Assembly: GCA_029564765.1 (NCBI GenBank)
Contig: JAKQPK010000013.1
Span: 125,753-189,752 of the forward strand
Reading direction: 5' to 3'
Length of the DNA: 64,000 nt
From: Candidatus Omnitrophota bacterium
GTDB taxonomy: Bacteria; Omnitrophota; Gorgyraeia; Zapsychrales; Aceulaceae
Both the position numbers and the translations under genes were made by a program. How positions within the stretch are numbered: the first letter of the stretch is position 1; every line of letters starts with the position of its first letter. The notes under the pieces were generated by a model. That model did not search any database, was not told where the DNA came from, and saw only the letters and a list, made by a program, of their open reading frames with translations. Below are positions 6,441-22,354 of this stretch, piece after piece.

Positions 6441-6761
6441 ATGAATAAGCGGGAAAATCCACGCTACGATTGTCGTGTTCCGCTCATGGATGAGCGCAGG
6501 GAAACCCTGAGCAGCAGCTACACTACAGATATTAGCCGCACAGGGGTTGGCTTCGTTTCAACACGATTCATTCCTGTTAATAGCAAGCTTATGGTCGAGA
6601 TCGCTTTAACTCGAGAGGAAAACCCGATGCTGGTTCAGGGACGGGTTCAATGGATCGAAAAGATCCCTCATTCGTCCAATTTCCGGATCGGAATGAATTT
6701 TTCAGATATTTCGTCAAATGCGCAATCGCGCATTGCAGAGCATTTTAGCGTTTCTGCTTAA
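6441..6761 (+). CDS. stand-alone PilZ domain protein (putative c-di-GMP receptor)
   Basis: It carries the 'RxxxR' motif ('RYDCR') and the 'DxSxxG' motif ('DISRTGVGF') that define c-di-GMP-binding PilZ domains. Confidence 0.7.
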   Translation: MNKRENPRYDCRVPLMDERRETLSSSYTTDISRTGVGFVSTRFIPVNSKLMVEIALTREENPMLVQGRVQWIEKIPHSSNFRIGMNFSDISSNAQSRIAEHFSVSA

Positions 6762-6793
6762 TATTTAAAAGCCACGGGGAAAGAGAATGCCCC

Positions 6794-7132
6794 TTGAAAA
6801 ATCGACTCAGTAGCAACCAGCGCCTTTTTGAACGCGTAGAGGTTCGTTTTCCTGCCCGCTTAAAGACTCTCCAAGCCTCTGAAGAGCGTGATATCGTTGT
6901 CAAAGATTTCTCTCCTGAAGGCATCAAGGTTCTTACGCACCAACGCCTTTCATTGTTTGATCGTCTGTCACTTTCATTGACGCCCATTGACGGATCCAAT
7001 CCCGTCCTCATGGATGGTTATGTCGTGTGGACAGGCAAGGATAACTCTGATAATTGGCATGCGGGGATCAAATTTAACCAAGTTGACCTGTTAAAAGCCA
7101 ACCGCATCATTGAATTTTGTCAGCGCTCTTGA
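6794..7132 (+). CDS. stand-alone PilZ domain protein (second copy)
   Basis: It carries 'RLFERVEVRF' (RxxxR) and 'DFSPEGIKV' (DxSxxG). It is a tandem paralogue of the preceding gene. Confidence 0.65.
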   Translation: MKNRLSSNQRLFERVEVRFPARLKTLQASEERDIVVKDFSPEGIKVLTHQRLSLFDRLSLSLTPIDGSNPVLMDGYVVWTGKDNSDNWHAGIKFNQVDLLKANRIIEFCQRS

Positions 7133-7243: not shown

Positions 7244-9664
7244 ATGCAATACGGTCATTTTTCTTCAGATAGCACAGAGTACATTATCACTAATCCTCAG
7301 ACGCCTTTCCCGTGGATCAATTATTTAACCAACGATCATTACTGTTCCATCATCTCTCAATGTGCCGGTGGTTATAGTTTTTATCGCGATTGCCGTACCA
7401 ATCGCGTAACACGCTGGGCTCCGGAAAATTATAATTTTGATCGACCCGGTAAATATATCTTTTTGCGCGACGAGAATGGCAAGGCTTGGTCAGCGACCTA
7501 TCAGCCTATCCGCCAAAAACCTACATCCTACGCCTGTCATCACGGATTAGGATATACGACCATTCGCTCAAAGAATTTTGGTGTTTTATCCGAAGTGACC
7601 TATTTTGTTCCCGAGGACGATGATTGTGAGCTTTGGATCGTCACGCTGGAGAATACGACATCCAAGACGAAAAAGCTCGAAGTTTTTCCCTATGTTGAAT
7701 TCTTGCTGGGCGATTATCAGGAAGAGTTGCGCTATCGCAATATCATGAATCTTTATAATCGTATTTGGTTTGATAAAAAGCAAAAAGCGATCTTTGCCAA
7801 GAAAACAGCTCAATGGGCGGGCATGAACATTCAGCCGTTCTCAAGCTTGATCTTTTTTGCTTCTTCGCTGAACCCGCAAGGTGCCTGTACGCAGAAGAGA
7901 GCTTTTTTAGGTCGTTATAATAACGAGGAAAGACCACAAGCCGTCCTAGAAGGCAAATTCCAGGATTTTCATCTTTGCTCTGGCGAAGATGGCATAGGAT
8001 CTTTTAAGCATACTGTTACACTAAAACCTGGCCAGCGCATGGAGTTTACGGTTGTTTTGGGCCAGACAGAGAAATTAAGCACTCTTAAAAAGCGTCTGGT
8101 TAATTATAAAAGCGTTGCCTATGCTAAAAAAGAGCTCACCAAGACTAAAAATATTTGGCGTGAACGTATTGTGGGTAACATTGAGGTTCAAACACCCGAT
8201 AACGAATTCAATACGATCGTTAATGTTTGGCTTAAATATCAGATGTATATTTGTAATATTTGGTCCCGTTCTCCGAGCTTCTTCCATGAAGGATCCGGCG
8301 GGCGAGGCTACCGAGATTCCTGCCAGGATTCTGAATCCATTGTTTCCATCAATTCAGCCTTAACGAGAAAAAAGATCTTGAAGATCGCTTCTTTGATCCG
8401 TCGCGACGGGACATCCGCGCCAGGGTGGTCAGAGACAGTTGGGCCGCACAAATTTCTGCCGAACAAAGATCATCAAGTTTGGCTTACGGCGACTGTTTGT
8501 GCGTATATCAAAGAAACAGGGGATGTGGACATTTTATCGGAGCAGGTTCCGTATATTCGCGATAAGTGGGTTGGCGGCTGGCACGAAGATAAGAATTGGA
8601 AAGGCCCGGCCAAAGAAGATGGCACAGGAACCCTTTTAGAGCACTTAGAAAAGAATCTTAGTTTTTGTTTTTCTGATACAGGTGCGCGAGGATTTCCTCT
8701 GATCGGTCACGCGGATTGGAATGATGCGATCGATGCTGCTGGGATCAAGCATAAAGGGGATAGCGTATGGCTGGCCCAAGCCTTGGTACGGTCTTTGCGT
8801 TTATTCGTTGACCTGTGCGAATTTATTGGCGAAACAGAAAAAGCGCGTAAATATTGTCAGATGGCTGACGTGATGGATAAACGTGTTAACGACAAGGGCT
8901 GGGATGGGGAATGGTATTCGAGAGGGTTCGATGATAACGGCCAGGTTTACGGCAGTCGCAAAGATAAGGAAGGGAAGATCTTTTTAAATACGCAAGCTTG
9001 GGCCGTTCTTTCAGGCGTCGCTAAGGACAAAAGGCTTAAGACGGTATTAAAGAGTGTTGATAAATATCTTAACGGACCTCATGGGCTGGCATTGTTCTAT
9101 CCAGCTTTTACTTCGTGGGTTAAGCGTTTAGGGCGTATTAGCATGTTCTCAGAAGGCACAAAAGAGAATGCGGCTGTTTTTTGTCACGCGGCAACGTTTA
9201 TGGCTGTTGCGTACGCAATGATCGGGCATGGTGATAAGGCTTATGAGGCGATGAAAAAGGTCATGCCTAACGCCCAAAAGGACATGGAGCTTTACAAAAC
9301 AGAACCTTACGCTTACGCTGAATATCTTGTCGGTCCTGGGAACCCCTATCGTTATGGTGAAGGAGCGTTCACATGGATCACCGGTACTGCTGGCTGGAGT
9401 TTTATGGCTGCGACAGAATGGGTCCTAGGTGCCCGTCGAGATTTTAATGGCTTACGTATCGACCCCTCGATCCCTCATCACTGGAAAAAATGCTTCATTC
9501 GCCGTCCATTTCGGGGCAGTGTCTACGAGATCACGATCGAAAACCCCAAAGGCAAAGAACATGGCGTCCAGGCTGTCTTTTTAGACGGAAAAGAGCTTGA
9601 TACTAACTTGCTTCCGGCTCTTAATGACGGCAAAACGCATCGCGTTAGGGTTGTTTTAGGATAA
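7244..9664 (+). CDS. GH94 glycoside phosphorylase (cellobiose/cellodextrin phosphorylase-like)
   Basis: It is collinear along its whole length with the Cellvibrio gilvus cellobiose phosphorylase sequence as I recall it (no search was run). The N-terminus reads 'YGHF...EYIIT.P.TP.PWINYL'. Shared internal blocks include 'FFHEGSGGRGYRDSCQD', the catalytic region 'GFPLIGHADWNDAID', 'PHGLALFYPAF', 'GTKENAAVFCH', 'EPYAYAEY' and the C-terminal 'VYEITIENPKG'. Length is 806 aa. Confidence 0.85.
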   Translation: MQYGHFSSDSTEYIITNPQTPFPWINYLTNDHYCSIISQCAGGYSFYRDCRTNRVTRWAPENYNFDRPGKYIFLRDENGKAWSATYQPIRQKPTSYACHHGLGYTTIRSKNFGVLSEVTYFVPEDDDCELWIVTLENTTSKTKKLEVFPYVEFLLGDYQEELRYRNIMNLYNRIWFDKKQKAIFAKKTAQWAGMNIQPFSSLIFFASSLNPQGACTQKRAFLGRYNNEERPQAVLEGKFQDFHLCSGEDGIGSFKHTVTLKPGQRMEFTVVLGQTEKLSTLKKRLVNYKSVAYAKKELTKTKNIWRERIVGNIEVQTPDNEFNTIVNVWLKYQMYICNIWSRSPSFFHEGSGGRGYRDSCQDSESIVSINSALTRKKILKIASLIRRDGTSAPGWSETVGPHKFLPNKDHQVWLTATVCAYIKETGDVDILSEQVPYIRDKWVGGWHEDKNWKGPAKEDGTGTLLEHLEKNLSFCFSDTGARGFPLIGHADWNDAIDAAGIKHKGDSVWLAQALVRSLRLFVDLCEFIGETEKARKYCQMADVMDKRVNDKGWDGEWYSRGFDDNGQVYGSRKDKEGKIFLNTQAWAVLSGVAKDKRLKTVLKSVDKYLNGPHGLALFYPAFTSWVKRLGRISMFSEGTKENAAVFCHAATFMAVAYAMIGHGDKAYEAMKKVMPNAQKDMELYKTEPYAYAEYLVGPGNPYRYGEGAFTWITGTAGWSFMAATEWVLGARRDFNGLRIDPSIPHHWKKCFIRRPFRGSVYEITIENPKGKEHGVQAVFLDGKELDTNLLPALNDGKTHRVRVVLG

Positions 9665-9699: not shown

Positions 9700-12600
9700 C
9701 TAGAAGTATTTTGTGTAGAACAAGCGGATAATGTGTTGCGTATCCACTGTTGGCGTTGAACTGCCGATATAGGGAGTGCCAGTAGCGTAGCCCGTGTAGA
9801 TCGATGGCCCGACACCGTAAGAAGCAGTGATCTTGCTTTCGTCCCTTAACAGATATTGTGTTTCAAAGAAAAAATTGTGATGGCTCTGAAAATCAATTTC
9901 CCCTCTGTTGTTGCCTAAAGAATCTAGATCAAGCAATTTAGTTAGACTGTTCCATCGGCTCCACGTGTATTTTGTGTACATTTGAAGATTTGCTGTTGGC
10001 ATGTAGCTAACAGCCAATCCGACATGGTTCATGTTGTCATCAATAGGCCCTGCAAATTCATTGGGATTGCGGGTGTAGTCCAGATAAATATTCCATTTGT
10101 CGTTGGGCCTGAAATCAAGTCCTGTGCGGAAGATATTGTGGTATTCGTACGGTGGTAGCGAGAAAAAACCTTGACTATAAAGGAAATTGTAGTCGCTGCG
10201 GTAGATCCTTCCATAAGAACTATTTGTGATCGTGCTTGTGTCATTTAATATGCCGCGTGGGAAGTTATCTGCAGCGACAGTAAAATCATTTGTACGTTCC
10301 CAGATACCGCTCCATGCAACCCAATCTGTGAGCCAGTATTTTAAGCCTAAAGATGTCGTATACAGATTGGCATCTTCATTGTCAGGGATAGCGGCATTGG
10401 CCATTTGACCACCGTCAAGACGTGTCATGTATGGATCAAACCCTCCCGTCGTGCGCGGAACATGATGGGCTAGCAAAAGCATTTTTGTTTCAAATCGCGA
10501 ATTTGGCTGCCAACCCCATTCTGTGCGAGCAACTGTTTCAACATATTTATTCGTGCTGGCTTGATGAACATTGCGGATATCTGCCAGACCTTTTAATTTT
10601 GCATCCCAGAATGAAAGATCTGTCCGCCAATTTGCGACATAGCGGTCATAGTCGATACCGTTACCGATGCGGAAAGCGTTAATATCATCCGAAGAGATCG
10701 TTTGAAAGCTAACGGGATCCCGGAAGGTCAGATGGCGCCCCCAGAATTCATCATCACGCGTTTCTAGGTATGTTGAGAGGCTGGATTGAAATCCTTTGTC
10801 CATACGTGAAAGACGAAGGCGTGTTTTATAAAAAGTAGATTGACCGTCTTCTGGCTTGATCAGGAAATAATCCTGATCAGCGCCTTCAAGATAAGAGGAC
10901 GTTTTCATTAATTGTAGATCATAGGCAGATCCTCGTTGCTGAGAATCGTAAAAATCATTGGTTAGATCTTGCTGTAGGTAGGAGAAAGCGTATTGAGCGG
11001 AAACTTTTGAGCTAGGGCTTATCATGAGGCCTGAATCAACACTAGTAACGATATTATAAGCATCTAAATCTTGATTGATAAATCCAAGATGGGCGTTATC
11101 TGTGATGCCGACATAGAACTGCTCAGAGAAGCTTTGTTTTGCGCGGACACTGGTCGCTAAAGCATCAAAGACATCATAGTCTTGCCAGAGCGTTTTTGGT
11201 GAAGCGACCGTTGCAAGGATCTCTGTATTTTCTTTGCTAAAATTTGCCGAAAAGCCGCGCAACGCTGTTAAGCGATTTCCTTCACTGTCGCGTGTTGCAA
11301 AAGCTAGGTCGTCATTCCATTCGCCTTTTGTAAAATCAACAGGGATAGCGCCGGCATTGACATGTCCTGGCTTCCAGTTCGCCAGCCAAGGGCTCTCTTC
11401 CCACCAGGTTCTGTTGTTGGAAAGGCGCAAAGGATCGTCTGAGGACAACGCCTTATCTTCAAGACCGAAGGGGAAGACTTGAAGCTTGATTGTATCGTTG
11501 GGCTCATAGTCTACCCACAACTCGCGTACAGGCTGAAACCACATGTTAAGTTTTGTATCAGGTAAGAGAAGCTTGTTCCCGAATTTTGTATTCAAGGATG
11601 TGCTGGCAACATGACCATTGACCACTTTTAGCTCGGGGATGGACATAAGGTCGCCAACGTACAGAGTGTCGGCATTCAGGCCCATGGTGTAGGCACTGTT
11701 GCCTGCGTATAGGATCTGTACGTCCGCATAATCTGTCCATGTTCCCAGTGCGCCACTATCACGCAATGTCATCTTTTTTGATTTTCCAACATAGCTCCAG
11801 GGGTCAAGGGCAATGTTCGTGTGAAACGAAAAAGGATTGCCAATAGGCTCGATATCAACATCAAATTTCATTTGGCTGTAAATGGCAGGGTCGTAGGTGT
11901 TGATGCGCTGGTTCAGCTGATCCCCGGAGAGAAGGCGATAATTCTTTTCATTGAGGTCAAAGTTCGCGCGTTTCCAGATAAACTCGCCACCCCCGGATGT
12001 TTCAAAGCCAAAGCCTGCGCGTACTTTACCGTGGACCATGACCTCTTCAGGCTTGGTTTCCTGATACTCTTTTTGCTTAGAAGAAAACGATCGATCATCA
12101 ACAGATTTCTGAGGAGCGATGTCTTCATCGCCGAAGGCTTCAAGCATTTTTGCTTCAGAGACAGTCTCAGCATTGAGCGCGGAAGCAAGGGTCTGACGAA
12201 CTGTCCGAGCAGGAGGATGGCTAGTGACCGCCTGCTGGCCTTTTGTATGCTGAGCGTATTCTTGCTCCAGCTCTTTGATCGCGTGAAATTTGTTGAGTTC
12301 GTCGTTAATAGCTTTGTCGCGGTTTTCAGCATATGATACTGAGGATCGCGCGTTTTCTATGGATTGTCGGCAGAGAGGAAGGTATTTGAGGGCATCAGGA
12401 TTGCCAGGTTCTCTGTTCAAGGCCGCTTCAAATTTCTTTGCGGCTTCAACATATTGTCCTTGGCCGTATAAAAAAAGACCCATTTCAGCATCGATATTGC
12501 TAGCTGTTGCTATGAAGGGAAACATGGAAAAAAGAACGAAAACAAAAAACCCTAACGAATAAATCGTTACCGACTTTATAGAGCGGTTCTTTTGGCTCAA
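9700..12600 (-). CDS. large outer-membrane protein with an N-terminal TPR-like region and a C-terminal aromatic-rich predicted beta-barrel
   Basis: It has a signal peptide and a TPR-like 'YGQGQYVEAAKKFEAALNREPGNPDALKYL'. About 700 aa follow with alternating aromatic/hydrophilic beta-strand character, ending in 'LFYTKYF', the C-terminal aromatic signature of an OM beta-barrel. It is transcribed divergently from the ABC sugar operon. Confidence 0.55.
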   Translation of the reverse strand: MSQKNRSIKSVTIYSLGFFVFVLFSMFPFIATASNIDAEMGLFLYGQGQYVEAAKKFEAALNREPGNPDALKYLPLCRQSIENARSSVSYAENRDKAINDELNKFHAIKELEQEYAQHTKGQQAVTSHPPARTVRQTLASALNAETVSEAKMLEAFGDEDIAPQKSVDDRSFSSKQKEYQETKPEEVMVHGKVRAGFGFETSGGGEFIWKRANFDLNEKNYRLLSGDQLNQRINTYDPAIYSQMKFDVDIEPIGNPFSFHTNIALDPWSYVGKSKKMTLRDSGALGTWTDYADVQILYAGNSAYTMGLNADTLYVGDLMSIPELKVVNGHVASTSLNTKFGNKLLLPDTKLNMWFQPVRELWVDYEPNDTIKLQVFPFGLEDKALSSDDPLRLSNNRTWWEESPWLANWKPGHVNAGAIPVDFTKGEWNDDLAFATRDSEGNRLTALRGFSANFSKENTEILATVASPKTLWQDYDVFDALATSVRAKQSFSEQFYVGITDNAHLGFINQDLDAYNIVTSVDSGLMISPSSKVSAQYAFSYLQQDLTNDFYDSQQRGSAYDLQLMKTSSYLEGADQDYFLIKPEDGQSTFYKTRLRLSRMDKGFQSSLSTYLETRDDEFWGRHLTFRDPVSFQTISSDDINAFRIGNGIDYDRYVANWRTDLSFWDAKLKGLADIRNVHQASTNKYVETVARTEWGWQPNSRFETKMLLLAHHVPRTTGGFDPYMTRLDGGQMANAAIPDNEDANLYTTSLGLKYWLTDWVAWSGIWERTNDFTVAADNFPRGILNDTSTITNSSYGRIYRSDYNFLYSQGFFSLPPYEYHNIFRTGLDFRPNDKWNIYLDYTRNPNEFAGPIDDNMNHVGLAVSYMPTANLQMYTKYTWSRWNSLTKLLDLDSLGNNRGEIDFQSHHNFFFETQYLLRDESKITASYGVGPSIYTGYATGTPYIGSSTPTVDTQHIIRLFYTKYF

Positions 12601-12772
12601 GATGACCTCAGAATTCTATTAAATAAGATTAATTAATATGTGAAACTAAATAAGTATAACATATAAAAAATAAAGAAAGCAAGACAGCTTTTGGATTTTT
12701 CGGTCTTTATATAAAGGATGATCTGGATAAAGGCGTTGTCTTTTTATGTCGAGAAAGTGCGAACCGTTGCTT

Positions 12773-12801
12773 TTGACAAGAAAAAGGCTTTATGTTATAC
12801 T
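12773..12801 (+). promoter_or_regulatory. near-consensus sigma70-type promoter (TTGACA, 17 nt spacer, TATACT) in front of the sugar ABC operon
   Basis: TTGACA lies at 12773-12778, followed by a 17-nt spacer and TATACT at 12796-12801. The element sits in a 270-bp AT-rich divergent intergenic region. Confidence 0.5.
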
Positions 12802-12870
12802 GCGATTTCTAATCAGCGCGCGGGGAAGGATACCTGCGGGTAATGTTAACCATCTGGAGTCCTCGGCTTC

Positions 12871-14151
12871 ATGAAAAGAATACTGCCTGTTGTTCTCGCT
12901 GTTTTTCTTCTTGCTGGCTGCTCTCCACTCATCGAACAAAAAGATACGATCACCATTTGGCATTGGATGACTGACCGCCAAGATGCTTTCACAAGACTTG
13001 CTCAGCAGTATGAGCAGAAAACAGGCGTGAAGGTTCGATTTGAGCTTTATGCGCCTTCTGATATTTATTCTAGAAAGATCGTTGCCGCGGCCCAGGCGAG
13101 GGCTTTGCCGGATATTTTTGGCATTCTTGGCGAGAAGAAAAGACTTGCGCTGTTCGTTGAAAGCGGGTTTGTGGCGGATCTGACCGACGAGTTCGAGAAA
13201 AACGATGCCTTGTGGGAAAAAAGCTTTTTTGAAAAAGCTTTGAACGTGAATCGTTTTGAACCTGACAACGCTTACAAAGTTAAGCCAGGCATTTACGGCG
13301 TTCCTTTGGATGTCACGAATATCCAGATGCTTTACAATGAAGAATTATTTGTGAAAGCCGGCATCAAAGAACCTCCTGAAACATTTGATCAGTTCTTGGA
13401 AAATATTGCTGTTCTTAATCGTCTTGGCATTGATGGGTTCGTTTCTGGGTGGGGCGAGAATTGGATGATCGACTGCTTTTCCTCGATTTATGCTCTGAAC
13501 ATAATGGGGGAAGAGAAAGTGATGGCTACTTATCGGGGAGAGGTTTCTTATACGGATGAAGATTGGATCAAGGTGCTATCTCTTTTTAAGACGATGCGTG
13601 ACCATAAAGCTTTGGTTCCCGGTATCGTAACGAAGGGCAACAAGTACGCAGAGCAAGATTTTGCTTTGGGACGTGCCGCTTTTGCTTTTAACGGGTCTTG
13701 GTGTGTTAATGTTTATGATAAAATGAATCCAGCGTTGCAGTATAAGGTTATGCTGCCTCCGCGCGTTGATCCCGATGTGCCCATGCAAATTTGGGGCGGC
13801 GCAGGGTCTTCTTTTGTTGTGAACCAGACGGCGGGTAACAGGCAACGGATCATTGATTTCTTAAAATGGCTGACCGGCAAGGAGCAACAGGTTTTCCTTT
13901 CCCAAGAAACAAAAAATCTGCCATCCAATCGCGAAGCCTTGTCTGAGATCCCGGATGTCTTGCTTCAGTTTGCTAAGGCAATGGACATCACCACGCATCC
14001 ATCGCTTTGGCCTTATAATGAGTCGCCCCTTGTCACGGAAGCATTTTGCAAAGGTATTCAAGCCATCATTATAGGTGAGGCAACCCCTGAGAAAGTCGCG
14101 ACTGATGTACAACGCCTTAAGGAACGTGAAATGAAAAGGGAGCGACAGTAA
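12871..14151 (+). CDS. ABC transporter substrate-binding lipoprotein for carbohydrates (family 1 solute-binding protein)
   Basis: The lipobox 'LLAGCSP' is present. Size and composition fit MalE/UgpB-type sugar-binding proteins. It is the first gene of an operon with two permeases. Confidence 0.7.
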   Translation: MKRILPVVLAVFLLAGCSPLIEQKDTITIWHWMTDRQDAFTRLAQQYEQKTGVKVRFELYAPSDIYSRKIVAAAQARALPDIFGILGEKKRLALFVESGFVADLTDEFEKNDALWEKSFFEKALNVNRFEPDNAYKVKPGIYGVPLDVTNIQMLYNEELFVKAGIKEPPETFDQFLENIAVLNRLGIDGFVSGWGENWMIDCFSSIYALNIMGEEKVMATYRGEVSYTDEDWIKVLSLFKTMRDHKALVPGIVTKGNKYAEQDFALGRAAFAFNGSWCVNVYDKMNPALQYKVMLPPRVDPDVPMQIWGGAGSSFVVNQTAGNRQRIIDFLKWLTGKEQQVFLSQETKNLPSNREALSEIPDVLLQFAKAMDITTHPSLWPYNESPLVTEAFCKGIQAIIIGEATPEKVATDVQRLKEREMKRERQ

Positions 14152-14157
14152 TCTGCC

Positions 14158-15084
14158 ATGCGTGTTGCTAGCGTGAAGAATCCATCTGCTGTGAACATCA
14201 AAGATCTTTTTGGTAATTATCTATTCATCTTACCAGCCGTTCTTATCTTCTCTCTTTTTTACGTCTATCCTTTCTTTGAAATCTTTTATCTTTCATTATA
14301 TGAGTGGAATGGTATTTCTACGACCCGTCATTTTATTGGGCTTGGTAATTTCTTTGAGATCATGCAGGATAAGGTTTGGTGGATGTCTGTATGGCATGCG
14401 GCATACATCACGCTCATTGCCCTGACCTTTCAGAATGCCCTAGCTTTCGCGTTAGCACTTTCCTGTGATAGGGATATCCGTATGCGCAGGTTTTATCGTT
14501 TTGTTTTCTATCTTCCTCCGGTTTTGTCAGAGGTTGTTGTTGGTCTGATCTGGCGTTGGATCCTGAGCGCGAGCATGCAGGGGGGGGAACCCGTTGGCCT
14601 GCTGAATTATTTCTTGACAAAAGCACATTTATATCATTTAATGCGAGATTGGCTGTCTGATCCTCGAACGGCGTTAACATCGATCGCCATTGTTCACAGC
14701 TGGAAAGGTTTTGGTTGGGGATTTATCATTTTGCTCGCTGGACTACAGACCATCGACCGCCAACTCTATGAGGCCGCACGCGTTGATGGCGCCAGTTCTC
14801 TGAGCATTTTGAAGAATATTACCATTCCCATGATGGTTCCGGTCTTCATCATGGTCATGATCCTGACGATCCTGGGTTCTATGCAGGTTTTTGTTCTGGT
14901 TCTCTCAATGGTGGGACAGGGTTTGGTCTATCATACAGAAGTTCCCGTTACGCGCATTCTTGATTCTATGATCGGAACAAGCCGTTTCGGCTACGCTTGC
15001 GCGCAAGGGATCGTCTTTGGTGGGATCCTGGTCGTTGGTTCTTTTATTTTACATAAATTCTCAAAGAAGGTAAGACAAGAATAA
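14158..15084 (+). CDS. sugar ABC transporter permease (MalF/UgpA-like)
   Basis: Six TM helices and the EAA-type motif region 'YEAARVDGASSLSILKNITIP' typical of CUT1 permeases. Confidence 0.75.
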   Translation: MRVASVKNPSAVNIKDLFGNYLFILPAVLIFSLFYVYPFFEIFYLSLYEWNGISTTRHFIGLGNFFEIMQDKVWWMSVWHAAYITLIALTFQNALAFALALSCDRDIRMRRFYRFVFYLPPVLSEVVVGLIWRWILSASMQGGEPVGLLNYFLTKAHLYHLMRDWLSDPRTALTSIAIVHSWKGFGWGFIILLAGLQTIDRQLYEAARVDGASSLSILKNITIPMMVPVFIMVMILTILGSMQVFVLVLSMVGQGLVYHTEVPVTRILDSMIGTSRFGYACAQGIVFGGILVVGSFILHKFSKKVRQE

Positions 15085-15095
15085 AAATAGGGATT

Positions 15096-15941
15096 ATGGC
15101 TGTTAGCAATTATAAATGGATCAGGGTCGTTCAGTCAGTGTTCTCGCACGTGTTCTTGATTTTTGTTGCTCTGACATGTTTGTTTCCCCTCCTATGGATG
15201 CTGCGGTCATCCTTAATGACCAATGAAACTATTTTTATTGATAAGGCCCTAATCCCGCAAACGCTTCATTTTAACAATTTTTATTTGGCCTGGACGCAGG
15301 GTAAGTTTGGGGTCTATTTTTTAAACAGCATCATCTATACTGCCAGCGCTGTTTTTGCCATCATTGTTATTGCCTCTCTGGCCGCTTATGCGTTCTCTCG
15401 ATTACAGTTCCCGGGAAAGAATTTCTTTTTTTATTTGTTTTTAGCTGCCATGATGATCCCTTTGCCCGGCAGCTTTGTCCCGCTGGTCGTTCTCATGAAC
15501 AAACTTCATTTAGCTAATACGCGCATCGGCTACATCCTGTGCATGATCAATGTCGGTTTATCGCTGAGCATTTATATTCTTAAGACGTTCTTTGATAAGA
15601 TGCCTTCAGCTTTAGAAGATGCGGCGCGTATAGACGGTTGCTCAAAGCTGGGGATCTGGTTCCATGTGGCCTTGCCATTGGCGCGTCCGGCGATCGCCGT
15701 TGTTGTTATTTTTAATACTTTAAATATTTGGAACGAGTATATTTTGGCAACATTGTTGCTGAATCATGAGCACCTGATGCCTTTGCAAAGAGGCTTAATG
15801 GTGTATCAGGGAGCGTACAGCGTTGACTATCCTATGCTGATGGCAGGATTGTCGATCACGGCTGCTCCGGTCGTTCTGGTCTATCTGTTCATGCAAAAAC
15901 ATATTATTAAAGGTCTCTCGGAAGGAGCTACGGCTGGATAA
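15096..15941 (+). CDS. sugar ABC transporter permease (MalG/UgpE-like)
   Basis: The EAA motif 'LEDAARIDGCSKLGIWFHVALPLARPAIA' is present. It is the second permease of the CUT1 importer. Confidence 0.75.
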   Translation: MAVSNYKWIRVVQSVFSHVFLIFVALTCLFPLLWMLRSSLMTNETIFIDKALIPQTLHFNNFYLAWTQGKFGVYFLNSIIYTASAVFAIIVIASLAAYAFSRLQFPGKNFFFYLFLAAMMIPLPGSFVPLVVLMNKLHLANTRIGYILCMINVGLSLSIYILKTFFDKMPSALEDAARIDGCSKLGIWFHVALPLARPAIAVVVIFNTLNIWNEYILATLLLNHEHLMPLQRGLMVYQGAYSVDYPMLMAGLSITAAPVVLVYLFMQKHIIKGLSEGATAG

Positions 15942-18253
15942 TGAAAAAAAATCTCTACCTATCGATCGTTGCAACTGTTCTTTTTTCTATGTTCTTTTTG
16001 TCTCAGGCCTCGGCACAAATTTTAAGCTCGCAAGAATATGTCCGCAAAGCCTGGGAGGCATCTTCACAGAATAACTTTGAAGAAGTTGACCGACTCACTG
16101 ATGAATGTGTGTTGCACTATAATGATCAAGCCAAGCAACAACAAGCGTCCTTAACGGGATTCGCTGACAAGGGGACCGAAAGCCAATATCAGGCGCTAAA
16201 CGATGTCGCAACAGCTTTGTTCATTCACGCAGAGTCTTTGATGAAGCAAGGAAAGACCGAAGACTCCAGAAAACTTTTTATGCGGATCATTGAGGAGTTT
16301 TCTTGGGCGCAAAGCTGGGATCCGCGCGGCTGGTATTGGGCTCCTGCTGAAAAAGCTCAAGCTAGTATCGATAAGCTCGACGGGAAATATGAACAAAAAC
16401 AGGTTGTCAAGGTCGACCGCGGACCAAAAACACTGCCGACCCTCAGCTTTCCAGGAGCAGAAAAGATCATTGACTATAAAAAATACGGACATTTTGTCGG
16501 TGTTGGAACTAAAGAGTATGAATATGTAATAGATGATCCTGAAGGCCTGATGAAGGCTGTGGGTCAATGCATCTATCCGAACACTAGCAGTCTTTTGAAA
16601 GATCCGGTTTACCGCCAGATGGTAAAGGATGGAAAGCTCGGGGGCAGCCATTGGGATTTTGTGCATACGGATGACTTGCAGAAAGCCGTTTATAAATGGG
16701 CTTCTTCATCAGAAAATTGGGGCGTTAAGCTTTTTTACATGGGCCTCTTGTTCGAACGAGCCCATATGTGGTATGAGGCTATCAAATGTTATCGCGCTAT
16801 TCAAATTCACTTTCCACAGTCTGTTGGACGTACTTATTGGAACACGCCTTGGTATCCAGGACAAGCTGCGATCGCGAAAATACGCCATTTGATCAATATC
16901 CGTCCTGAATTAGATCTCAAGTATGTTGGCGCGAAGATCCAGGTGATCAACGGTTTTGATAATGATGTGGCCAACGATATTGTTTTAACTTGGCCCGGGG
17001 AATTACGTAAAAAGAACATTTGGGACAAAGTCCAAGAGAAATTTGCTTCATTTTTTCCTGAGAAACAGTGTGTTTTTAGTCCATCTAATTCCAAGAAGGT
17101 TTTAGGAGCTGGTCGGGTGCGTCTTTTGCAATGCAAAGAAAGCGGACATTGGCAGCTTCAGATCGATGAGAAACCAGCCATGATCAAAGCTGTTACCTAT
17201 GTGGCAACAAAGGTCGGGCAAAGTCCAGACAATGGAACTTTGGCTGATTGGATGGTGGAGGATACGAACCATAATGGAAAACCCGATGGTCCTTTTGATA
17301 GCTGGGTAGACAAGAATCGCAATAATAAACAGGATAGCGATGAGCCAGTTGTTGGGGATTTCCAGCTTCTTAAGGAAATGGGTGTTAATGCGATCCGTAT
17401 TTATAAGCAGCCTTATAATGCTGACAAAGAGCTTTTACGCAAGTTGTATAATGACTATGGCATCATGGTCATTATGGGTGATTTCTTGGGAAAGTACGCT
17501 CTTGGTTCTGGCGCGAGTTGGTTCGAGGGAACGGATTACGATAATCCTGAACACAAAAAGAACATGATGGAGTCCGTTCGTAAAATGGTTGAGGAATTCA
17601 AGGATGAGCCTTATGTTCTTTTTTGGCTTTTAGGCAACGAAAATAATTATGGCTTAGGATGCAATGCGGATAAAAAACCAGAAAGCTATTTTAAATTCGT
17701 TGAAGAAGTTGCCCAGATGATCAAATCTATTGATAAGAATCATCTTGTGGCTGTTTGCAATGGAGATACCTTATTTTTGGATATTTTTGCTGAAAACTGT
17801 CCTTCTGTTGATATTTTTGGTGCGAACGCTTATCGTGGGGATTATGGATTTGGCTCTTATTGGGCGCAGGTTTTTGAACTTACCGGGCGCCCCGCCTTTA
17901 TTACAGAGTATGGATGTCCAGCATACGCAAATTTTCTTAGTCCGGAAGAAGCGGAGCAAGCTCAGGCTGATTATCATCAGGGAGCTTGGGAGGATATGCT
18001 TTTTAACGCGGCTGGATCGAAGGAAGGTGTCGGGAACGCTTTAGGTGGGGTTGTCTTTGAGTGGATGGACGAATGGTGGAAGAATTATGAACCCTATTAT
18101 CATGATAAAACCGCTGGCGCTAAAGGGCCTTTCCCGGATGGTTTTATGTATGAAGAGTGGTTTGGCATCATTGGACAGGGAGATGGCAGCCATAGCCCGT
18201 TCTTGCGGCAACTTCGTAAAGCTTATGAGTATTATAAGAAGGCCTGGAATTAA
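15941..18253 (+). CDS. secreted two-domain protein: N-terminal helical repeat domain plus C-terminal clan GH-A (TIM-barrel, GH5/GH2-like) glycoside hydrolase
   Basis: It has a signal peptide. The 'WLLGNENNYG' (acid/base NE) and 'AFITEYGCPAY' (nucleophile E) blocks are spaced as in clan GH-A retaining glycosidases. The N-terminal ~135 aa are homologous to the repeats of the following gene. Confidence 0.6.
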   Translation: MKKNLYLSIVATVLFSMFFLSQASAQILSSQEYVRKAWEASSQNNFEEVDRLTDECVLHYNDQAKQQQASLTGFADKGTESQYQALNDVATALFIHAESLMKQGKTEDSRKLFMRIIEEFSWAQSWDPRGWYWAPAEKAQASIDKLDGKYEQKQVVKVDRGPKTLPTLSFPGAEKIIDYKKYGHFVGVGTKEYEYVIDDPEGLMKAVGQCIYPNTSSLLKDPVYRQMVKDGKLGGSHWDFVHTDDLQKAVYKWASSSENWGVKLFYMGLLFERAHMWYEAIKCYRAIQIHFPQSVGRTYWNTPWYPGQAAIAKIRHLINIRPELDLKYVGAKIQVINGFDNDVANDIVLTWPGELRKKNIWDKVQEKFASFFPEKQCVFSPSNSKKVLGAGRVRLLQCKESGHWQLQIDEKPAMIKAVTYVATKVGQSPDNGTLADWMVEDTNHNGKPDGPFDSWVDKNRNNKQDSDEPVVGDFQLLKEMGVNAIRIYKQPYNADKELLRKLYNDYGIMVIMGDFLGKYALGSGASWFEGTDYDNPEHKKNMMESVRKMVEEFKDEPYVLFWLLGNENNYGLGCNADKKPESYFKFVEEVAQMIKSIDKNHLVAVCNGDTLFLDIFAENCPSVDIFGANAYRGDYGFGSYWAQVFELTGRPAFITEYGCPAYANFLSPEEAEQAQADYHQGAWEDMLFNAAGSKEGVGNALGGVVFEWMDEWWKNYEPYYHDKTAGAKGPFPDGFMYEEWFGIIGQGDGSHSPFLRQLRKAYEYYKKAWN

Positions 18254-18289: not shown

Positions 18290-18350
18290 CACTTTTACAT
18301 TTGGCCCATAGATGATCTTTTATCAAAATCACAAAAGGAGGAGTAGCGGT

Positions 18351-19208
18351 ATGAGAAAAATTTTTATTGCGGCTTTGTTGATCCTTGGAATTGGGATCGT
18401 GAGCCCTGTCACGGCGTCAGCTTATAATTTTGGTGATTATCGCTCTGTGACATTGACGAGCAAGGCATGGGAAGCCCTTAATGCCGGTGACGTTGAAGCA
18501 GTTTTGGCTTACACCAAGAAATGTATTGAACTTTATGGTGAGCAAGCTAAGAAAATGCAAGCTTCTTTAAAAGATTATGTGAAGGGCACAAACGAGGAAG
18601 TGTTTAAGAACTGGGCGCTTAATGATGTTTCTGTCTGCCTTTTCATCCAAGGTGAAGCCTATCGTAAGGCAAAAATGATGGATGAAGCCAAAGAAGCCTA
18701 CCAGAAAGTTATTAATGATTATAAATTCGGTCAGTGCTGGGATAATGGCGGGTGGTTCTGGAAGCCAGCGGAAGCTGCCAAGGAACGCTTGGACGCGATC
18801 ATCAAGGGTATTAATGTTGATTTTGGTGACATGAAATCTTCCACCTTGACCACTAAGGCATGGGAGGCTTACAACAAAAACGATCTTGAATCCGTCCTTC
18901 TGTATACCAATAAATGTATCGCAACTTACGGTGAAGAAGCTAAGAAGATGCAGGCTTCTCTTTCGGAATATCCATGGGAAAATAATGAAAAGATCTTTTC
19001 TTATTGGGCATTAAACGATGTTGGGACCTGTTTCTTTATTCAAGGGGATGCATATAAAAAAGCAGGAAAGGCAAAGGAAGCAGAAAAAGCTTTTGGTCAA
19101 TTGATCAAGGAATATTATTTTGCTCAAGCATGGGATCCCCAGGGTTGGTTCTGGAAGCCTTCAGAAGCAGCTGAGCAAAGATTAGAAGAAATGAAGGAAA
19201 ACCAGTAA
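18351..19208 (+). CDS. secreted protein made of two tandem copies of a ~130-aa helical domain ('KAWEA...WALNDV...WDPQGWFWKP')
   Basis: The start was moved to the Met at 18351 (MRKIFIAALL...) because the RBS 'AGGAGG' sits 7 nt upstream, and the 18312 Met would lie upstream of that RBS. A signal peptide is present. The two internal repeats share long identical blocks with each other and with the N-terminus of the preceding gene. Confidence 0.6.
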   Translation: MRKIFIAALLILGIGIVSPVTASAYNFGDYRSVTLTSKAWEALNAGDVEAVLAYTKKCIELYGEQAKKMQASLKDYVKGTNEEVFKNWALNDVSVCLFIQGEAYRKAKMMDEAKEAYQKVINDYKFGQCWDNGGWFWKPAEAAKERLDAIIKGINVDFGDMKSSTLTTKAWEAYNKNDLESVLLYTNKCIATYGEEAKKMQASLSEYPWENNEKIFSYWALNDVGTCFFIQGDAYKKAGKAKEAEKAFGQLIKEYYFAQAWDPQGWFWKPSEAAEQRLEEMKENQ

Positions 19209-19273: not shown

Positions 19274-19906
19274 ATGCATAAAGTCGGCCATCTCTTTTTG
19301 ATCTTTTTCCTGGTTGCTCTTTTTGGTTGCGATCAAAATATTAAACCTCAGGACGGAGCGCGAGATAGCGGGAAACAAGGCGTTCATTTCGACCCTTTTC
19401 CTATTTACACAAACGTTGGCTCGCGAGACAATCATTATGTTCCATCAGGATTTATGCCTGACGGGCAATGTATCAGTCTTGATAATCGTTGGCAAGAGGG
19501 TTGCCATAGCGATCCTACCTGTATCAAGATTTCTTATGACGTTATCTGTTCTCAGAAAGGGGCTAGATGGGCTGGTATTTACTGGCAGAACCCCGCACAT
19601 AACTGGGGTGGCCGTAAAGGTGGCTTTAACCTGACAGGCGCTAAGAAATTGACGTTCTGGGCAAAAGGCGAAAAAGGTGGCGAGCGTATTGAAGAATTTA
19701 AGATGGGTGGTATCTCAGGAGATTATCCTGATACCGATACAGCCTTTATTGGACCTGTTATCCTAACGCCGGAATGGAAGCAATACAGCATTGATCTGCG
19801 AGGCAAGGACCTGTCTTACGTAAGTGGAGGTTTTTGCTTTACAACCAACGTTGAGGTCAATCCTGAGCCGATCGTATTCTTTCTAGACGATATGCGTTAC
19901 GAATAA
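19274..19906 (+). CDS. hypothetical secreted lipoprotein
   Basis: Lipobox 'LFGCDQ' is present. The body is Trp/Gly-rich ('GARWAGIYWQNPAHNWGGRKGG') and may be a carbohydrate-binding-like beta domain. It is the last gene before a terminator. Confidence 0.45.
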   Translation: MHKVGHLFLIFFLVALFGCDQNIKPQDGARDSGKQGVHFDPFPIYTNVGSRDNHYVPSGFMPDGQCISLDNRWQEGCHSDPTCIKISYDVICSQKGARWAGIYWQNPAHNWGGRKGGFNLTGAKKLTFWAKGEKGGERIEEFKMGGISGDYPDTDTAFIGPVILTPEWKQYSIDLRGKDLSYVSGGFCFTTNVEVNPEPIVFFLDDMRYE

Positions 19907-21341: not shown

Positions 21342-21346
21342 TTCCC

Positions 21347-22354
21347 GTGAGCGCTAAAAAAATTAGCATTGAAGATGTTGCGCAGCGCGCCGGCGTGTCC
21401 ATCACGACCGTTTCTCGTGTCATCAATAATTTCCCTACTGTTTCCAAAAAAAACCGCGCTAAGGTCGAAGAAGCGATCGCCCATCTTAATTTTAAGCCGA
21501 ATGTAAGCGCCCAGCGTCTTGCTCGAGGGCTTAATACCGCGGTCGGCCTGGTCATGCCTGGCTATCCTGGCATTTTTCATTCTTTTTACGCGATCGAGAT
21601 CATTCGCGGGATCGGGCACGCGTGCGAAACATTGCATTTGGACCTTGTCTTTCATATTACTAATGGCATGAACCCTCTAAACACCAGCAACGTCGGTGGT
21701 GTTATTTTTGCGGATATCATTGAAAACCGTAAACAGTTAGAGTCGATCCTTTCGGAAGGGATCCCATGCATGGTCATCAACAACATCGTAGATGACCTTA
21801 AGGTGAACTTTATCGCTGTTGATAATTTTAAGGGTGCAGAGATGGCGGTCGACTATCTATTTGGGTTAGGCCACACGAAGATCGCGACAGTGACCGGAAG
21901 CCTGCAAACGCAAGGCGGCGTTCATCGCTTTGATGGATATAAAAGCGGCCTGAAGCAAAAAGGCCTTATCTTTACGGAAGATTATGTCTATGAGGGGGAT
22001 TATTCTCGCCGGTCCGCGAGAATAGGATTAGAAAAGTTTTTATCTCTTAAAGAAGATCGTCCGACAGCTATCTTTGCCGCTAGCGATGATATGGCATCGG
22101 AGATCATCAACGTGGCTCTTGAGCAAGGGCTCAAGGTTCCCAAAGACCTTTCTGTGATCGGTTTTGATGACAACCCTATAGGTCTATATGGCTCTGTAAG
22201 TTTGACAACCATTCGACAACCTCTTTTTAAAATGGCCGAAGAGGCTGTGAAGCAGCTGAACGCGATCGTTTCTGGACGTCGTCATTCGCCTGTTAAACAA
22301 GTCTTGGCGCCTGAGTTAGTGGTCCGAGAGTCGTGCGCATCCCCAGGCGCTTAA
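21347..22354 (+). CDS. LacI-family transcriptional regulator (GTG start)
   Basis: The HTH 'ISIEDVAQRAGVSITTVSRVINN' is followed by a periplasmic-binding-protein-like sugar-binding domain. The start codon is GTG at 21347. Confidence 0.8.
   Translation: MSAKKISIEDVAQRAGVSITTVSRVINNFPTVSKKNRAKVEEAIAHLNFKPNVSAQRLARGLNTAVGLVMPGYPGIFHSFYAIEIIRGIGHACETLHLDLVFHITNGMNPLNTSNVGGVIFADIIENRKQLESILSEGIPCMVINNIVDDLKVNFIAVDNFKGAEMAVDYLFGLGHTKIATVTGSLQTQGGVHRFDGYKSGLKQKGLIFTEDYVYEGDYSRRSARIGLEKFLSLKEDRPTAIFAASDDMASEIINVALEQGLKVPKDLSVIGFDDNPIGLYGSVSLTTIRQPLFKMAEEAVKQLNAIVSGRRHSPVKQVLAPELVVRESCASPGA

What the first reader, a model, noticed from the sequence alone, without database searches (positions are those of the whole stretch)
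9700..12600. 966-aa TPR plus aromatic-rich beta-barrel outer-membrane protein of unknown family at the heart of the glycan locus
Seen in sequence: a signal peptide is followed by an N-terminal TPR-like helix pair. About 700 aa of strand-like, Tyr/Trp/Phe-rich sequence follow, ending in the OMP C-terminal signature '...LFYTKYF'. There is no TonB box, plug-domain motif or POTRA repeat that I recognise, so it is not an obvious SusC/TonB-dependent transporter, BamA or LptD. It sits between the GH94 gene and the ABC operon, sharing a divergent promoter region with the latter. Inference: it may be a large oligosaccharide-specific porin/uptake channel of a new family.
Basis: partly seen in the sequence, partly recalled or inferred. 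Interest (0 to 1): 0.55.

Follow-up and report, generated by a model that had tools for sequence, protein, structure and literature searches.

The report
New Omnitrophota outer-membrane barrel, beta-glucan locus
This gene encodes a very large outer-membrane beta-barrel protein of a family seen so far almost only in the uncultured phylum Omnitrophota, and it repeatedly sits inside a beta-glucan uptake gene cluster, so it is most likely that cluster's outer-membrane gate.

Summary
ORF 9700-12600 (-) encodes 966 aa: a Sec signal peptide, one TPR-like helix pair, a poorly conserved helical/disordered linker, and a ~780-aa beta-rich body ending in an invariant Phe.

In 31 of 79 species-level loci, and next to the most divergent members (29-31% identity), it lies beside the same genes:
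- a sugar ABC importer;
- a secreted GH158-like glucanase;
- a CBM-fold lipoprotein;
- ROK and LacI regulators;
- GH94 or GH161 beta-glucan phosphorylases.

These occur in three orientations, sometimes with 1-4 bp gaps.

Best reading (about 0.5): a TonB-independent outer-membrane channel or platform for beta-gluco-oligosaccharides. Transport itself is untested.

Caveats:
- 34 of 79 loci show no glycan genes within 8 kb.
- The Velamenicoccus orthologue is a low-abundance protein.
- The long loops are more conserved than the strands, which is unusual for a porin.

The parts
9700..12600 (-). Gene for the 966-aa outer-membrane protein (TTG start, stop at 9700-9702)
   Evidence: A 100%-identical protein is in public metagenome and MAG data. 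A member of its 90% cluster (HOD11978.1, 941 aa) is annotated only as 'hypothetical protein', Candidatus Omnitrophota.
12502..12600 (-). Sec signal peptide, aa 1-33 (n-region K/R, hydrophobic core, ATA|S cleavage motif)
   Evidence: AF2 helix 4-25.
12361..12504 (-). TPR-like helix pair, aa 33-80
   Evidence: AF2 pLDDT 88-94. Pfam TPR hits are sub-threshold here and significant in relatives. PDB profile hits to consensus TPR proteins.
12046..12360 (-). Low-confidence helix (aa 81-118) plus a disordered Ala/Glu/Ser/Gln-rich linker (aa 113-184). Poorly conserved and variable in length across the family.
   Evidence: AF2 pLDDT 28-59. Mean conservation 0.19 for aa 1-185. The N-terminal region before the body is 57-250 aa in relatives.
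9703..12045 (-). Conserved beta-barrel body, aa 186-966: about 30 DSSP strands. Long, highly conserved loops at aa 201-242, 266-357, 380-445 and 601-652.
9703..9732 (-). C-terminal strand IIRLFYTKYF with invariant terminal Phe (OMP beta-signal-like)
12601..12870 (.). Divergent intergenic region. OMP side: TTGCTT-18-TATACT with TG extension (-10 at 12653-12661 on the minus strand) and SD GAGG (12606-12609). ABC side: TTGACA-17-TATACT at 12773-12801 (+).
   Evidence: The ABC promoter and the OMP -10 element are conserved in relatives L006, L008 and L009. These are consensus matches, not shown to function.
7244..9664 (+). GH94 disaccharide phosphorylase, full-length relative of cellobiose and chitobiose phosphorylases; convergent with the OMP gene
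   Evidence: Pfam. PDB 3qde E 2e-152 and 1v7v E 5e-129.
12871..15941 (+). Sugar ABC importer: solute-binding protein (12871-14151) and two permeases (14158-15084, 15096-15941). No ATPase gene in the cluster.
15941..18253 (+). Secreted 770-aa glycoside hydrolase: signal peptide, N-terminal helical module, clan GH-A TIM barrel. Nearest solved relatives are GH158 endo-beta-1,3-glucanases.
18312..19208 (+). Secreted 298-aa protein made of two copies of the helical module found at the N-terminus of the 770-aa hydrolase
19274..19906 (+). 210-aa lipoprotein (lipobox LFGC) with a CBM-type beta-sandwich fold
20076..22354 (+). Coiled-coil protein (20076-21341) and LacI-family regulator (21347-22354). 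In other lineages these directly follow the OMP gene.
6441..7132 (+). Two small PilZ-domain proteins upstream of GH94, which recur near the OMP in other lineages

Best explanation
The protein is the outer-membrane component of a beta-glucan (beta-1,3 and/or beta-1,4 gluco-oligosaccharide) utilisation system that is widespread in Omnitrophota.

Proposed pathway (inferred):
1. A secreted GH158-like endo-glucanase and a CBM-fold lipoprotein capture and cut beta-glucan at the envelope.
2. The oligosaccharides cross the outer membrane through this very large barrel (up to about 30 strands). It works without TonB. Its long, highly conserved, aromatic- and acid-rich loops probably fold over or into the lumen to form a specific constriction or binding path.
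3. The periplasmic binding protein and ABC permeases import the sugars.
4. Cytoplasmic GH94 or GH161 phosphorylases cleave them.
5. ROK and LacI repressors control the genes.

The short N-terminal TPR and flexible linker would hang in the periplasm as a docking arm. They are not part of the conserved core.

Shown: the gene, signal peptide, TPR, terminal Phe, barrel-type model, family limits, and the recurrent gene neighbourhood.

Inferred: passage of sugar through the barrel, the position of the loops, and the role of the TPR.
For: Envelope location.
- Signal peptide and invariant C-terminal Phe.
- AF2 model with about 30 strands; body pLDDT mostly 85-97.
- OMP_b-brl and Porin_2 exceed their gathering scores inside the body of relatives.

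Gene linkage.
- Among 79 species-representative loci the family occurs once per locus. 31 loci carry at least one glucan enzyme or transport family within 8 kb, 25 of them immediately adjacent. 45 do so when ROK, LacI, the coiled-coil protein and PilZ are counted.
- The linkage occurs in 4 of 7 sequence groups.
- It appears in three arrangements: ABC-GH-lipoprotein > OMP > ROK-CC-LacI; OMP > ABC-GH; and OMP <> ABC-GH.
- Gaps of 4, -10 and 1 bp to the upstream hydrolase gene occur in L078, L083 and L084.
- The most divergent members (29-31% identity) keep the same operon.
- In 16 loci the convergent neighbour is a GH161 beta-1,3-glucan phosphorylase (PDB 9qqk E 2e-243).
- In one contig a GH116 beta-glucosidase ORF runs straight into the OMP gene.

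Partner identities.
- GH94, close to cellobiose phosphorylase.
- GH158-like secreted hydrolase.
- CBM30/CBM11-like lipoprotein.
- CUT1-type binding protein and permeases.
- It is the only outer-membrane protein in the cluster.

Loops.
- 30 of 50 invariant residues lie in the long loops (L1-L4, L7, L9, L11, L13, L15). Many are Trp, Tyr, Asp, Glu or Arg, the residue types that line sugar channels and sugar-binding sites (the link to sugar binding is inference).

Field data.
- Omnitrophota GH161 transcripts were reported in laminarin-amended sediment (PMC11919646).
- The Velamenicoccus orthologue QAT16845.1 is detected as protein (PMC12583861 supplement).
Against: - No direct evidence of transport, and I could not inspect model coordinates. 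Strand number (30 is an upper bound), pore size and loop position are therefore unverified.
- 34 of 79 loci show none of the glycan genes within 8 kb. These include the Velamenicoccus-type context.
- In some lineages the neighbours are envelope-biogenesis genes: lnt and lpxL, or lepB, pgsA and plsY.
- Part of the linkage could be inherited synteny rather than functional coupling.
- The Velamenicoccus orthologue is scarce: riBAQ about 12-14 ppm, against 100-1400 ppm for the abundant proteins seen in the same table. That culture was not fed glucan.
- A ~780-aa barrel is far larger than known sugar porins (14-18 strands).
- Loops more conserved than strands is atypical for diffusion porins.
Confidence: 0.5

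Rival explanations
1. It is a housekeeping outer-membrane protein of Omnitrophota: a general diffusion pore, a structural protein or an envelope-biogenesis component. Its proximity to glucan genes is inherited synteny with no functional coupling.
For: - The family occurs once per locus and across the phylum, with 50 invariant columns.
- 34 of 79 loci lack glycan neighbours.
- In other lineages it follows lnt-lpxL or lepB-pgsA-plsY.
- Low abundance in Velamenicoccus would fit a machine-like component.
Against: - The linkage to the same gene set survives three different rearrangements. It also reaches the most divergent members.
- Near-zero intergenic gaps to glucanase and ROK genes.
- Low abundance argues against a major structural protein or general porin.
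Confidence: 0.22
2. It is a surface platform rather than a pore. The barrel anchors and organises the secreted glucanase, the helical-module protein and the CBM lipoprotein at the outer membrane, and sugars enter by another route.
For: - The long loops are highly conserved, as expected for protein-protein interfaces.
- The N-terminal TPR is a protein-binding motif.
- One relative carries a 1950-aa N-terminal extension with Beta_helix/NosD, CarboxypepD_reg and SdrD_B domains.
Against: - No other outer-membrane protein is encoded in the cluster to serve as the channel.
- The N-terminal region is the least conserved part and is nearly absent in many members.
- The OMP TPR shows no similarity to the helical module of the hydrolase.
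Confidence: 0.13
3. It is an exporter for a beta-glucan exopolysaccharide, analogous to the TPR-plus-barrel proteins BcsC, PgaA and PelB. The phosphorylases would act in the synthetic direction, and the PilZ proteins would supply c-di-GMP control.
For: - TPR followed by a barrel.
- PilZ genes recur nearby.
- GH94 and GH161 reactions are reversible (established enzymology, from my own knowledge).
Against: - Only one to one-and-a-half TPR repeats are present, and many members lack them.
- No glycosyltransferase or synthase gene is in the cluster.
- The transporter has a periplasmic binding protein, which marks an importer.
- LacI and ROK repressors, a secreted endo-glucanase and a CBM lipoprotein all indicate catabolism.
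Confidence: 0.07
4. It is a highly divergent LptD-like lipopolysaccharide insertase.
For: - Large barrel, one copy per locus, phylum-wide, low abundance.
- lpxL lies immediately upstream in six loci.
- LptD chains appear among the Foldseek hits.
Against: - No OstA_N or LptD family hit in this protein at E<=1, and none among the 25 most frequent families in 48 members.
- The N-terminus is helical and disordered, not a beta-jellyroll.
- Whether Omnitrophota also have a canonical LptD could not be checked here.
Confidence: 0.04

Closest known systems
Vibrio chitoporin (ChiP) with the (GlcNAc)2 ABC importer and GH94 chitobiose phosphorylase; maltoporin LamB and sucrose porin ScrY with their ABC or PTS partners
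   Different: - The known sugar porins are 16-18-strand proteins of 350-450 aa. This body is ~780 aa with up to 30 strands.
- No sequence-family match.
- The loops are more conserved than the strands.
- It has an N-terminal TPR and linker.
SusC/SusD-type polysaccharide utilisation loci of Bacteroidota (including beta-1,3-glucan loci with GH158)
   Same: A gene cluster combining an outer-membrane barrel, a glycan-binding lipoprotein, a secreted endo-glucanase (GH158-like here) and regulators. The lipoprotein model also hits Bacteroides surface glycan-binding proteins.
   Different: - No plug domain, TonB box or TonB-dependent-receptor family match.
- Foldseek TM to TonB-dependent transporters is 0.21-0.23.
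- The lipoprotein has a CBM-type sandwich, not the SusD fold.
- Inner-membrane step is an ABC importer.
TPR-plus-barrel exopolysaccharide exporters (BcsC, PgaA, PelB; AlgK/AlgE)
   Same: Domain order: signal peptide, TPR, C-terminal barrel. Glycan context.
   Different: - Those proteins carry long TPR arrays and 16-18-strand barrels, and they sit in synthase operons (my own knowledge).
- Here there is one helix pair, no synthase, and an importer.
Deinococcus SlpA and Negativicutes OmpM (periplasmic domain, stalk, large barrel)
   Same: - Order of parts: periplasmic module, long helix or linker, very large barrel.
- SlpA has the best query-normalised Foldseek TM (0.27-0.28 over about 970-1000 columns).
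- Its 30-strand barrel (my own knowledge of the published structure) matches the DSSP strand count here.
- One member gave a weak SlpA_C hit (E 0.01, not significant).
   Different: - No SLH domain.
- The helix is low-confidence and not a clear coiled coil.
- SlpA and OmpM are very abundant, whereas the Velamenicoccus orthologue is scarce.
LptD
   Same: A large barrel that occurs once per locus; it appears in Foldseek hits.

Membership tests
Outer-membrane beta-barrel proteins (general class) | Sec signal peptide, no lipobox, no other hydrophobic helix | tested here: met
Outer-membrane beta-barrel proteins (general class) | C-terminal strand ending in an aromatic residue (beta-signal) | tested here: met
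   Terminal Phe is invariant in 48 of 48 aligned members and 56 of 57 scored.
Outer-membrane beta-barrel proteins (general class) | Closed transmembrane beta-barrel fold | tested here: inconclusive
   The AF2 model is all-beta with about 30 strands. All top fold hits are OM barrels. OMP_b-brl and Porin_2 exceed their cut-offs in relatives. Closure and strand number could not be checked without coordinates. A co-evolution test was swamped by gap artefacts.
LptD/OstA | N-terminal beta-jellyroll (OstA_N) domain | tested here: not met
   The AF2 N-terminus is helical and disordered. There is no such Pfam or NCBIfam hit in this protein, and none among the top 25 families in 48 members.
LptD/OstA | C-terminal LptD barrel family (PF04453) and specific structural similarity | tested here: not met
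LptD/OstA | Absence of another LptD in the genome, and an LptE partner | not testable with these tools
   Whole Omnitrophota genomes could not be scanned.
TonB-dependent transporters / SusC | N-terminal plug domain and TonB box | tested here: not met
   No Plug or TonB_dep_Rec hit at E<=1, and none among the top 25 families in 48 members. The N-terminus is TPR plus linker.
TonB-dependent transporters / SusC | 22-strand barrel with specific structural match | tested here: not met
Omp85 (BamA/TamA) | POTRA repeats plus the Bac_surface_Ag barrel | tested here: not met
Type Va autotransporters | 12-strand C-terminal Autotransporter barrel with an N-terminal passenger | tested here: not met
TPR-porin exopolysaccharide exporters (BcsC/PgaA/PelB) | Long TPR array, 16-strand barrel, synthase operon | tested here: not met
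   A single helix pair, absent in many members. No synthase in the neighbourhood.
SLH-anchored barrels (OmpM/SlpA) | N-terminal SLH domain and coiled-coil stalk | tested here: not met
   No SLH hit. Helix 68-118 has pLDDT 42-59.
Sugar-specific porins (LamB, ScrY, OprD/ChiP, CymA families) | Membership of those sequence families; 14-18 strands | tested here: not met

The most novel reading that the evidence does not exclude
This family is a third kind of outer-membrane glycan gate, besides small sugar porins and TonB-dependent SusC-like transporters. It would be a roughly 30-strand, TonB-independent barrel whose conserved loops form the specificity filter. It would work with a CBM lipoprotein and a secreted GH158-like glucanase as a phylum-specific 'utilisation locus'. 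If so, beta-glucan scavenging would be a core trait of Omnitrophota, possibly using host or prey glucans.
Probability: 0.3. Interest if true: 0.75.

Novelty: new variant of a known kind. Interest (0 to 1): 0.6.

Why it matters
Omnitrophota are abundant, uncultured, mostly ultra-small bacteria whose nutrition and envelope are poorly understood. I found no description of their outer-membrane proteins or glucan use in the papers I could search.

If correct, the finding matters in three ways:
- It adds a phylum-wide, unnamed outer-membrane family with no specific structural relative, and so a new entry in the small catalogue of very large barrels.
- Its conserved partnership with a compact beta-glucan uptake cluster gives a concrete, testable hypothesis for what many of these organisms eat.
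- It suggests how sugars could cross their outer membrane without TonB.

The family and its partners (the CBM lipoprotein and the GH158-like hydrolase with its helical module) could be defined as new annotation models. That would turn hundreds of 'hypothetical' or 'TPR repeat' proteins into interpretable genes.

Tried and rejected
- Sequence-family searches. Pfam, NCBIfam and PDB sequences gave only TPR matches, both for the single protein and for 48 members or a 56-sequence profile.
- Fold search of AFDB50. The library was not available. PDB searches gave only generic barrel matches.
- Simple neighbour counting. I first read the context as not conserved, because no neighbour family is present in more than 17 of 79 loci. 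Mapping the arrangements onto a sequence tree reversed that reading.
- Shared operator. A palindrome search of the divergent spacer found no convincing LacI-type operator, only AT-rich repeats.
- TPR similarity. The OMP TPR and the helical module of the hydrolase and 298-aa protein are not significantly similar (E 0.5).
- GH116-OMP 'fusion' (P0297). Probably two adjacent genes read as one ORF, because a signal peptide sits at the junction. I count it as adjacency only.
- Co-evolution test. Mean-field DCA on 265 sequences (effective number 191) was meant to test barrel closure. The top couplings were gap and indel artefacts, so it was uninformative.
- Literature. I found no paper naming this protein or its Velamenicoccus orthologue.
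- Other candidates in the window. The 700-aa ORF with no family at 42808-44910 was checked as a possible second OMP. It is an alpha-helical membrane protein.
Full report
**1. The observation**

- ORF and start. The minus-strand ORF 9700-12600 encodes 966 aa from a TTG start, preceded by a GAGG ribosome-binding site.
- Signal peptide. The first 33 residues form a normal Sec signal peptide ending in A-T-A|S. It is the only strongly hydrophobic segment, and the whole protein has a single Cys.
- TPR. AF2 places two confident helices at 33-46 and 50-63 (pLDDT 88-94). These match TPR models weakly here. The match is clear in relatives (28 of 48 members, best E 3e-8) and at profile level (E 4e-21 to consensus TPR designs).
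- Linker. Residues 81-185 are a low-confidence helix plus a disordered Ala/Glu/Ser/Gln-rich linker.
- Body. Residues 186-966 are beta-rich and 14.5% aromatic. They end in ...LFYTKYF, and the last Phe is invariant across the family.
- Position. The gene lies tail-to-tail with a GH94 gene and head-to-head with an ABC operon across 270 bp.

**2. What fold and what family**

Structure prediction.
- An AF2 model built from 56 homologues has mean pLDDT 80.8 and pTM 0.73. The body is mostly at 85-97.
- DSSP gives about 30 strands in the body. An even number is consistent with both barrel ends lying in the periplasm.
- Some of these strands are short or polar, so 30 is an upper bound.

Fold searches.
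- Foldseek agrees: E down to 5e-11 but TM only 0.21-0.28.
- In some relatives the Pfam models OMP_b-brl and Porin_2 exceed their gathering scores inside the body.

Sequence families.
- No Pfam, NCBIfam or PDB-sequence family other than TPR matches this protein. None is consistently matched across 48 members.
- A phmmer search with the body alone against 1.84 billion representative proteins finds only 162 sequences. All listed hits align in register along the query body as full-length members or fragments.

The protein therefore belongs to a closed, unnamed family of very large outer-membrane barrels.

**3. Distribution**

- The word-indexed search found at least 422 relatives. Nearly all are annotated 'hypothetical' or 'tetratricopeptide repeat protein' from Candidatus Omnitrophota.
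- 152 species-representative genomes carry the family, and 80 loci were fetched.
- A few carry other labels: an automated 'Planctomycetales/-ia' series, one Elusimicrobia, one Deltaproteobacteria. Those that yielded a scorable sequence nest among the Omnitrophota ones; the Deltaproteobacteria locus (L048) did not. For example, L006 is labelled Planctomycetales but is 92-93% identical to the window protein, whose cluster-mates are labelled Omnitrophota.
- The family occurs once per locus.
- Identity across the phylum stays near 40% over the body, with 50 invariant columns.
- The N-terminal region is the variable part. It is 57-250 aa long with mean conservation 0.19, and TPR is detected in only about 60% of members.
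- The complete genome of Ca. Velamenicoccus archaeovorus encodes an orthologue, QAT16845.1 / BU251_03395. It is transcribed (10 TPM) and detected in metaproteomes at about 12-14 ppm riBAQ. That shows a real protein of low abundance (supplement of PMC12583861).

**4. Gene neighbourhood: the informative result**

I clustered all ORFs from the 80 fetched loci (79 of which yielded the OMP) and laid the arrangements on a sequence tree.

| Type | Arrangement | Where seen |
|---|---|---|
| Window type | GH94 > < OMP \| SBP > permease > permease > 770-aa hydrolase > 298-aa helical protein > 210-aa lipoprotein > coiled-coil protein > LacI | Window, L006, L008, L009; L007 partly (short contig) |
| A | SBP > permease > permease > hydrolase > (helical protein) > lipoprotein > (hydrolase paralogue) > OMP > ROK > coiled-coil > LacI | Eight distant loci; some show the operon only partly (e.g. 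L078) |
| A2 | PilZ > OMP > SBP > permeases > hydrolase > lipoprotein | L021 |
| E | lnt > lpxL > OMP > coiled-coil > LacI | Six loci |
| B | lepB-pgsA-plsY > OMP > < 1080-aa protein (GH161 beta-1,3-glucan phosphorylase, PDB 9qqk E 2e-243) | 16 loci with the GH161 neighbour |
| D | OMP > purH-folC-mnmE-CvpA-PilZ-PilZ-GH94 | Five loci (GH94 within reach in two) |
| C, F, G | No recognisable glycan gene within 8 kb | Remaining loci, including the Velamenicoccus type |

- In type A the same strand is used throughout. Gaps from the hydrolase paralogue to the OMP gene are 4, -10 and 1 bp in three loci. Gaps to the following ROK gene range from 2 to about 200 bp.
- Counts: 31 of 79 loci have at least one glucan enzyme or transporter family nearby, 25 of them immediately adjacent. 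The figure is 45 of 79 with regulators and PilZ counted, and 34 of 79 have none.
- The linkage occurs in 4 of 7 sequence groups.
- It holds for the most divergent family members I could place. P0327 (29% identity) and P0314 (31%) sit at the end of the same SBP-permease-permease-hydrolase-lipoprotein operon. In P0314's locus a PilZ protein, GH161 and ROK follow.
- In another contig a GH116 beta-glucosidase ORF runs in frame into the OMP gene, with the OMP signal peptide at the junction, followed by GH161.

Adjacency that survives inversion and transposition over this depth is good evidence for functional coupling. It is not proof.

**5. The partners**

- GH94 gene. A full-length relative of cellobiose phosphorylase (3qde, E 2e-152) and chitobiose phosphorylase (1v7v, E 5e-129).
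- 770-aa protein. It has a signal peptide, an N-terminal helical module and a clan GH-A TIM barrel. Its nearest solved relatives are GH158 endo-beta-1,3-glucanases (E 1e-14).
- 298-aa protein. Secreted, and made of two copies of that helical module.
- 210-aa protein. It has a lipobox (LFGC) and belongs to a very conserved Omnitrophota family with at least 1491 members. My Pfam scan of it returned no family, and neither did the precomputed domains of the listed homologues.
- Transporter. A binding protein and two permeases of the carbohydrate ABC type.
- Regulators. LacI and ROK-with-wHTH are sugar regulators.

Together these make a compact beta-glucan capture, import and phosphorolysis system, in which this protein is the only outer-membrane component. 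Independent field data report Omnitrophota GH161 transcripts in laminarin-amended sediment (PMC11919646).

**6. How it most likely works**

I propose that the barrel is the outer-membrane gate of this system and that it works without TonB.
- There is no plug, TonB box or TonB-dependent-receptor match.
- The long loops are more conserved (0.65-0.76) than the strands (0.5-0.68) and the short turns (0.3-0.5). These loops fall after odd-numbered strands, so they would be extracellular if all 30 strands span the membrane.
- These loops hold 30 of the 50 invariant residues. Many are Trp, Tyr, Asp, Glu or Arg.
- That is the opposite of a typical diffusion porin. It suggests loops that pack into or over the lumen as a specificity filter or gate, or that form a fixed docking surface for the lipoprotein and hydrolase.
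- The N-terminal TPR and flexible linker would reach into the periplasm. Because they are weakly conserved, they are accessory.

These mechanistic steps are inference. I could not inspect coordinates, measure a pore or model complexes.

**7. Rivals**

- A housekeeping outer-membrane protein whose glycan neighbours reflect inherited synteny remains plausible (about 0.2). Supporting points are the 34 of 79 loci without glycan genes, the neighbouring lnt/lpxL or lepB/pgsA/plsY genes, and the low abundance in Velamenicoccus.
- A platform-only role (about 0.13) is a variant of the main idea.
- An exopolysaccharide exporter of the BcsC/PgaA type is unlikely. There is no synthase, the transporter is an importer, the regulators are catabolic, and the TPR is minimal.
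- A divergent LptD is unlikely on domain and fold grounds. The presence of a canonical LptD in these genomes could not be checked.

**8. Comparison with known systems**

- In function it most resembles chitoporin or maltoporin-type systems coupled to ABC importers and GH94 phosphorylases.
- In gene-cluster logic it resembles Bacteroidota utilisation loci.
- In architecture it is closest to SlpA-like giant barrels.
- It fails the defining tests of every named family I considered (see the membership table).

I rate it a new variant of a known kind: an outer-membrane beta-barrel glycan gate, unusual in size, loop conservation, lineage restriction and partner set.

**9. Verdict**

- Interest 0.6. 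A specialist in outer-membrane proteins or in candidate-phyla physiology would find a phylum-wide, unnamed, roughly 30-strand barrel tied to a novel beta-glucan locus worth pursuing.
- The transport role still needs structural and experimental confirmation.

Noticed in passing
window 19274-19906 (+): The 210-aa lipoprotein belongs to a very conserved family (57-80% identity among the listed hits). It has at least 1491 members, named Omnitrophota wherever a source gives a name. My Pfam scan of it returned no family, and none is precomputed for the listed homologues. Its AF2 model has a CBM30/CBM11-like sandwich. The residue after the lipid-modified Cys is Asp.
   Followed up: yes
window 15941-18253 (+) and 18312-19208 (+): A ~120-aa helical module (weak TPR_6 hits) sits at the N-terminus of the secreted GH158-like hydrolase. 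It occurs twice in tandem in the next gene (38% and 31% identity). Shorter paralogues of the hydrolase occur next to the OMP in other lineages.
   Followed up: partly
window 20076-21341 (+): A 421-aa coiled-coil protein with no family is paired with the LacI regulator in at least 15 Omnitrophota loci, usually right after the OMP or ROK gene. Its role is unknown.
   Followed up: partly
window 6441-6761 and 6794-7132 (+): Two tandem PilZ-only proteins lie upstream of GH94, and the pair recurs in related loci. Larger PilZ-containing proteins (593-648 aa) flank the OMP in L086 and L090. This hints at c-di-GMP control of the glucan system.
   Followed up: no
window 12653-12661 (-) and 12792-12801 (+): Both divergent promoters carry the same extended -10 element, ATGTTATACT. 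No shared palindromic operator was found in the spacer.
   Followed up: partly
window 12526-12600 (-): A member of the same 90% cluster in NCBI (HOD11978.1) is annotated as 941 aa. This is consistent with a start at Met26, which would cut through the signal peptide. The TTG start with its GAGG site gives a complete signal peptide and looks like the better call.
   Followed up: partly
L087 8001-16166 (P0320): A 2721-aa relative has a signal peptide, Beta_helix/NosD, CarboxypepD_reg and SdrD_B domains, then the barrel body at its C-terminus. This is an autotransporter-like layout on a giant barrel.
   Followed up: partly
P0308 (1090 aa, no locus fetched): One relative has a Protochlamydia Pom-family barrel (PF17251, E 1e-56) directly in front of the OMP body. 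It is either a tandem-barrel protein or two merged gene calls.
   Followed up: no
L089 14886-18349 and onward: The contig carrying the most divergent placed member also encodes a 23,417-aa giant protein, a known Omnitrophota hallmark.
   Followed up: no
window 12871-15941 (+): The sugar ABC operon has a binding protein and two permeases but no ATPase gene, here and in related loci. A shared ATPase encoded elsewhere is implied.
   Followed up: no
window 42808-44910 (-): A 700-aa multi-pass alpha-helical membrane protein with no Pfam match at E<=1e-5. It is unrelated to the finding.
   Followed up: partly
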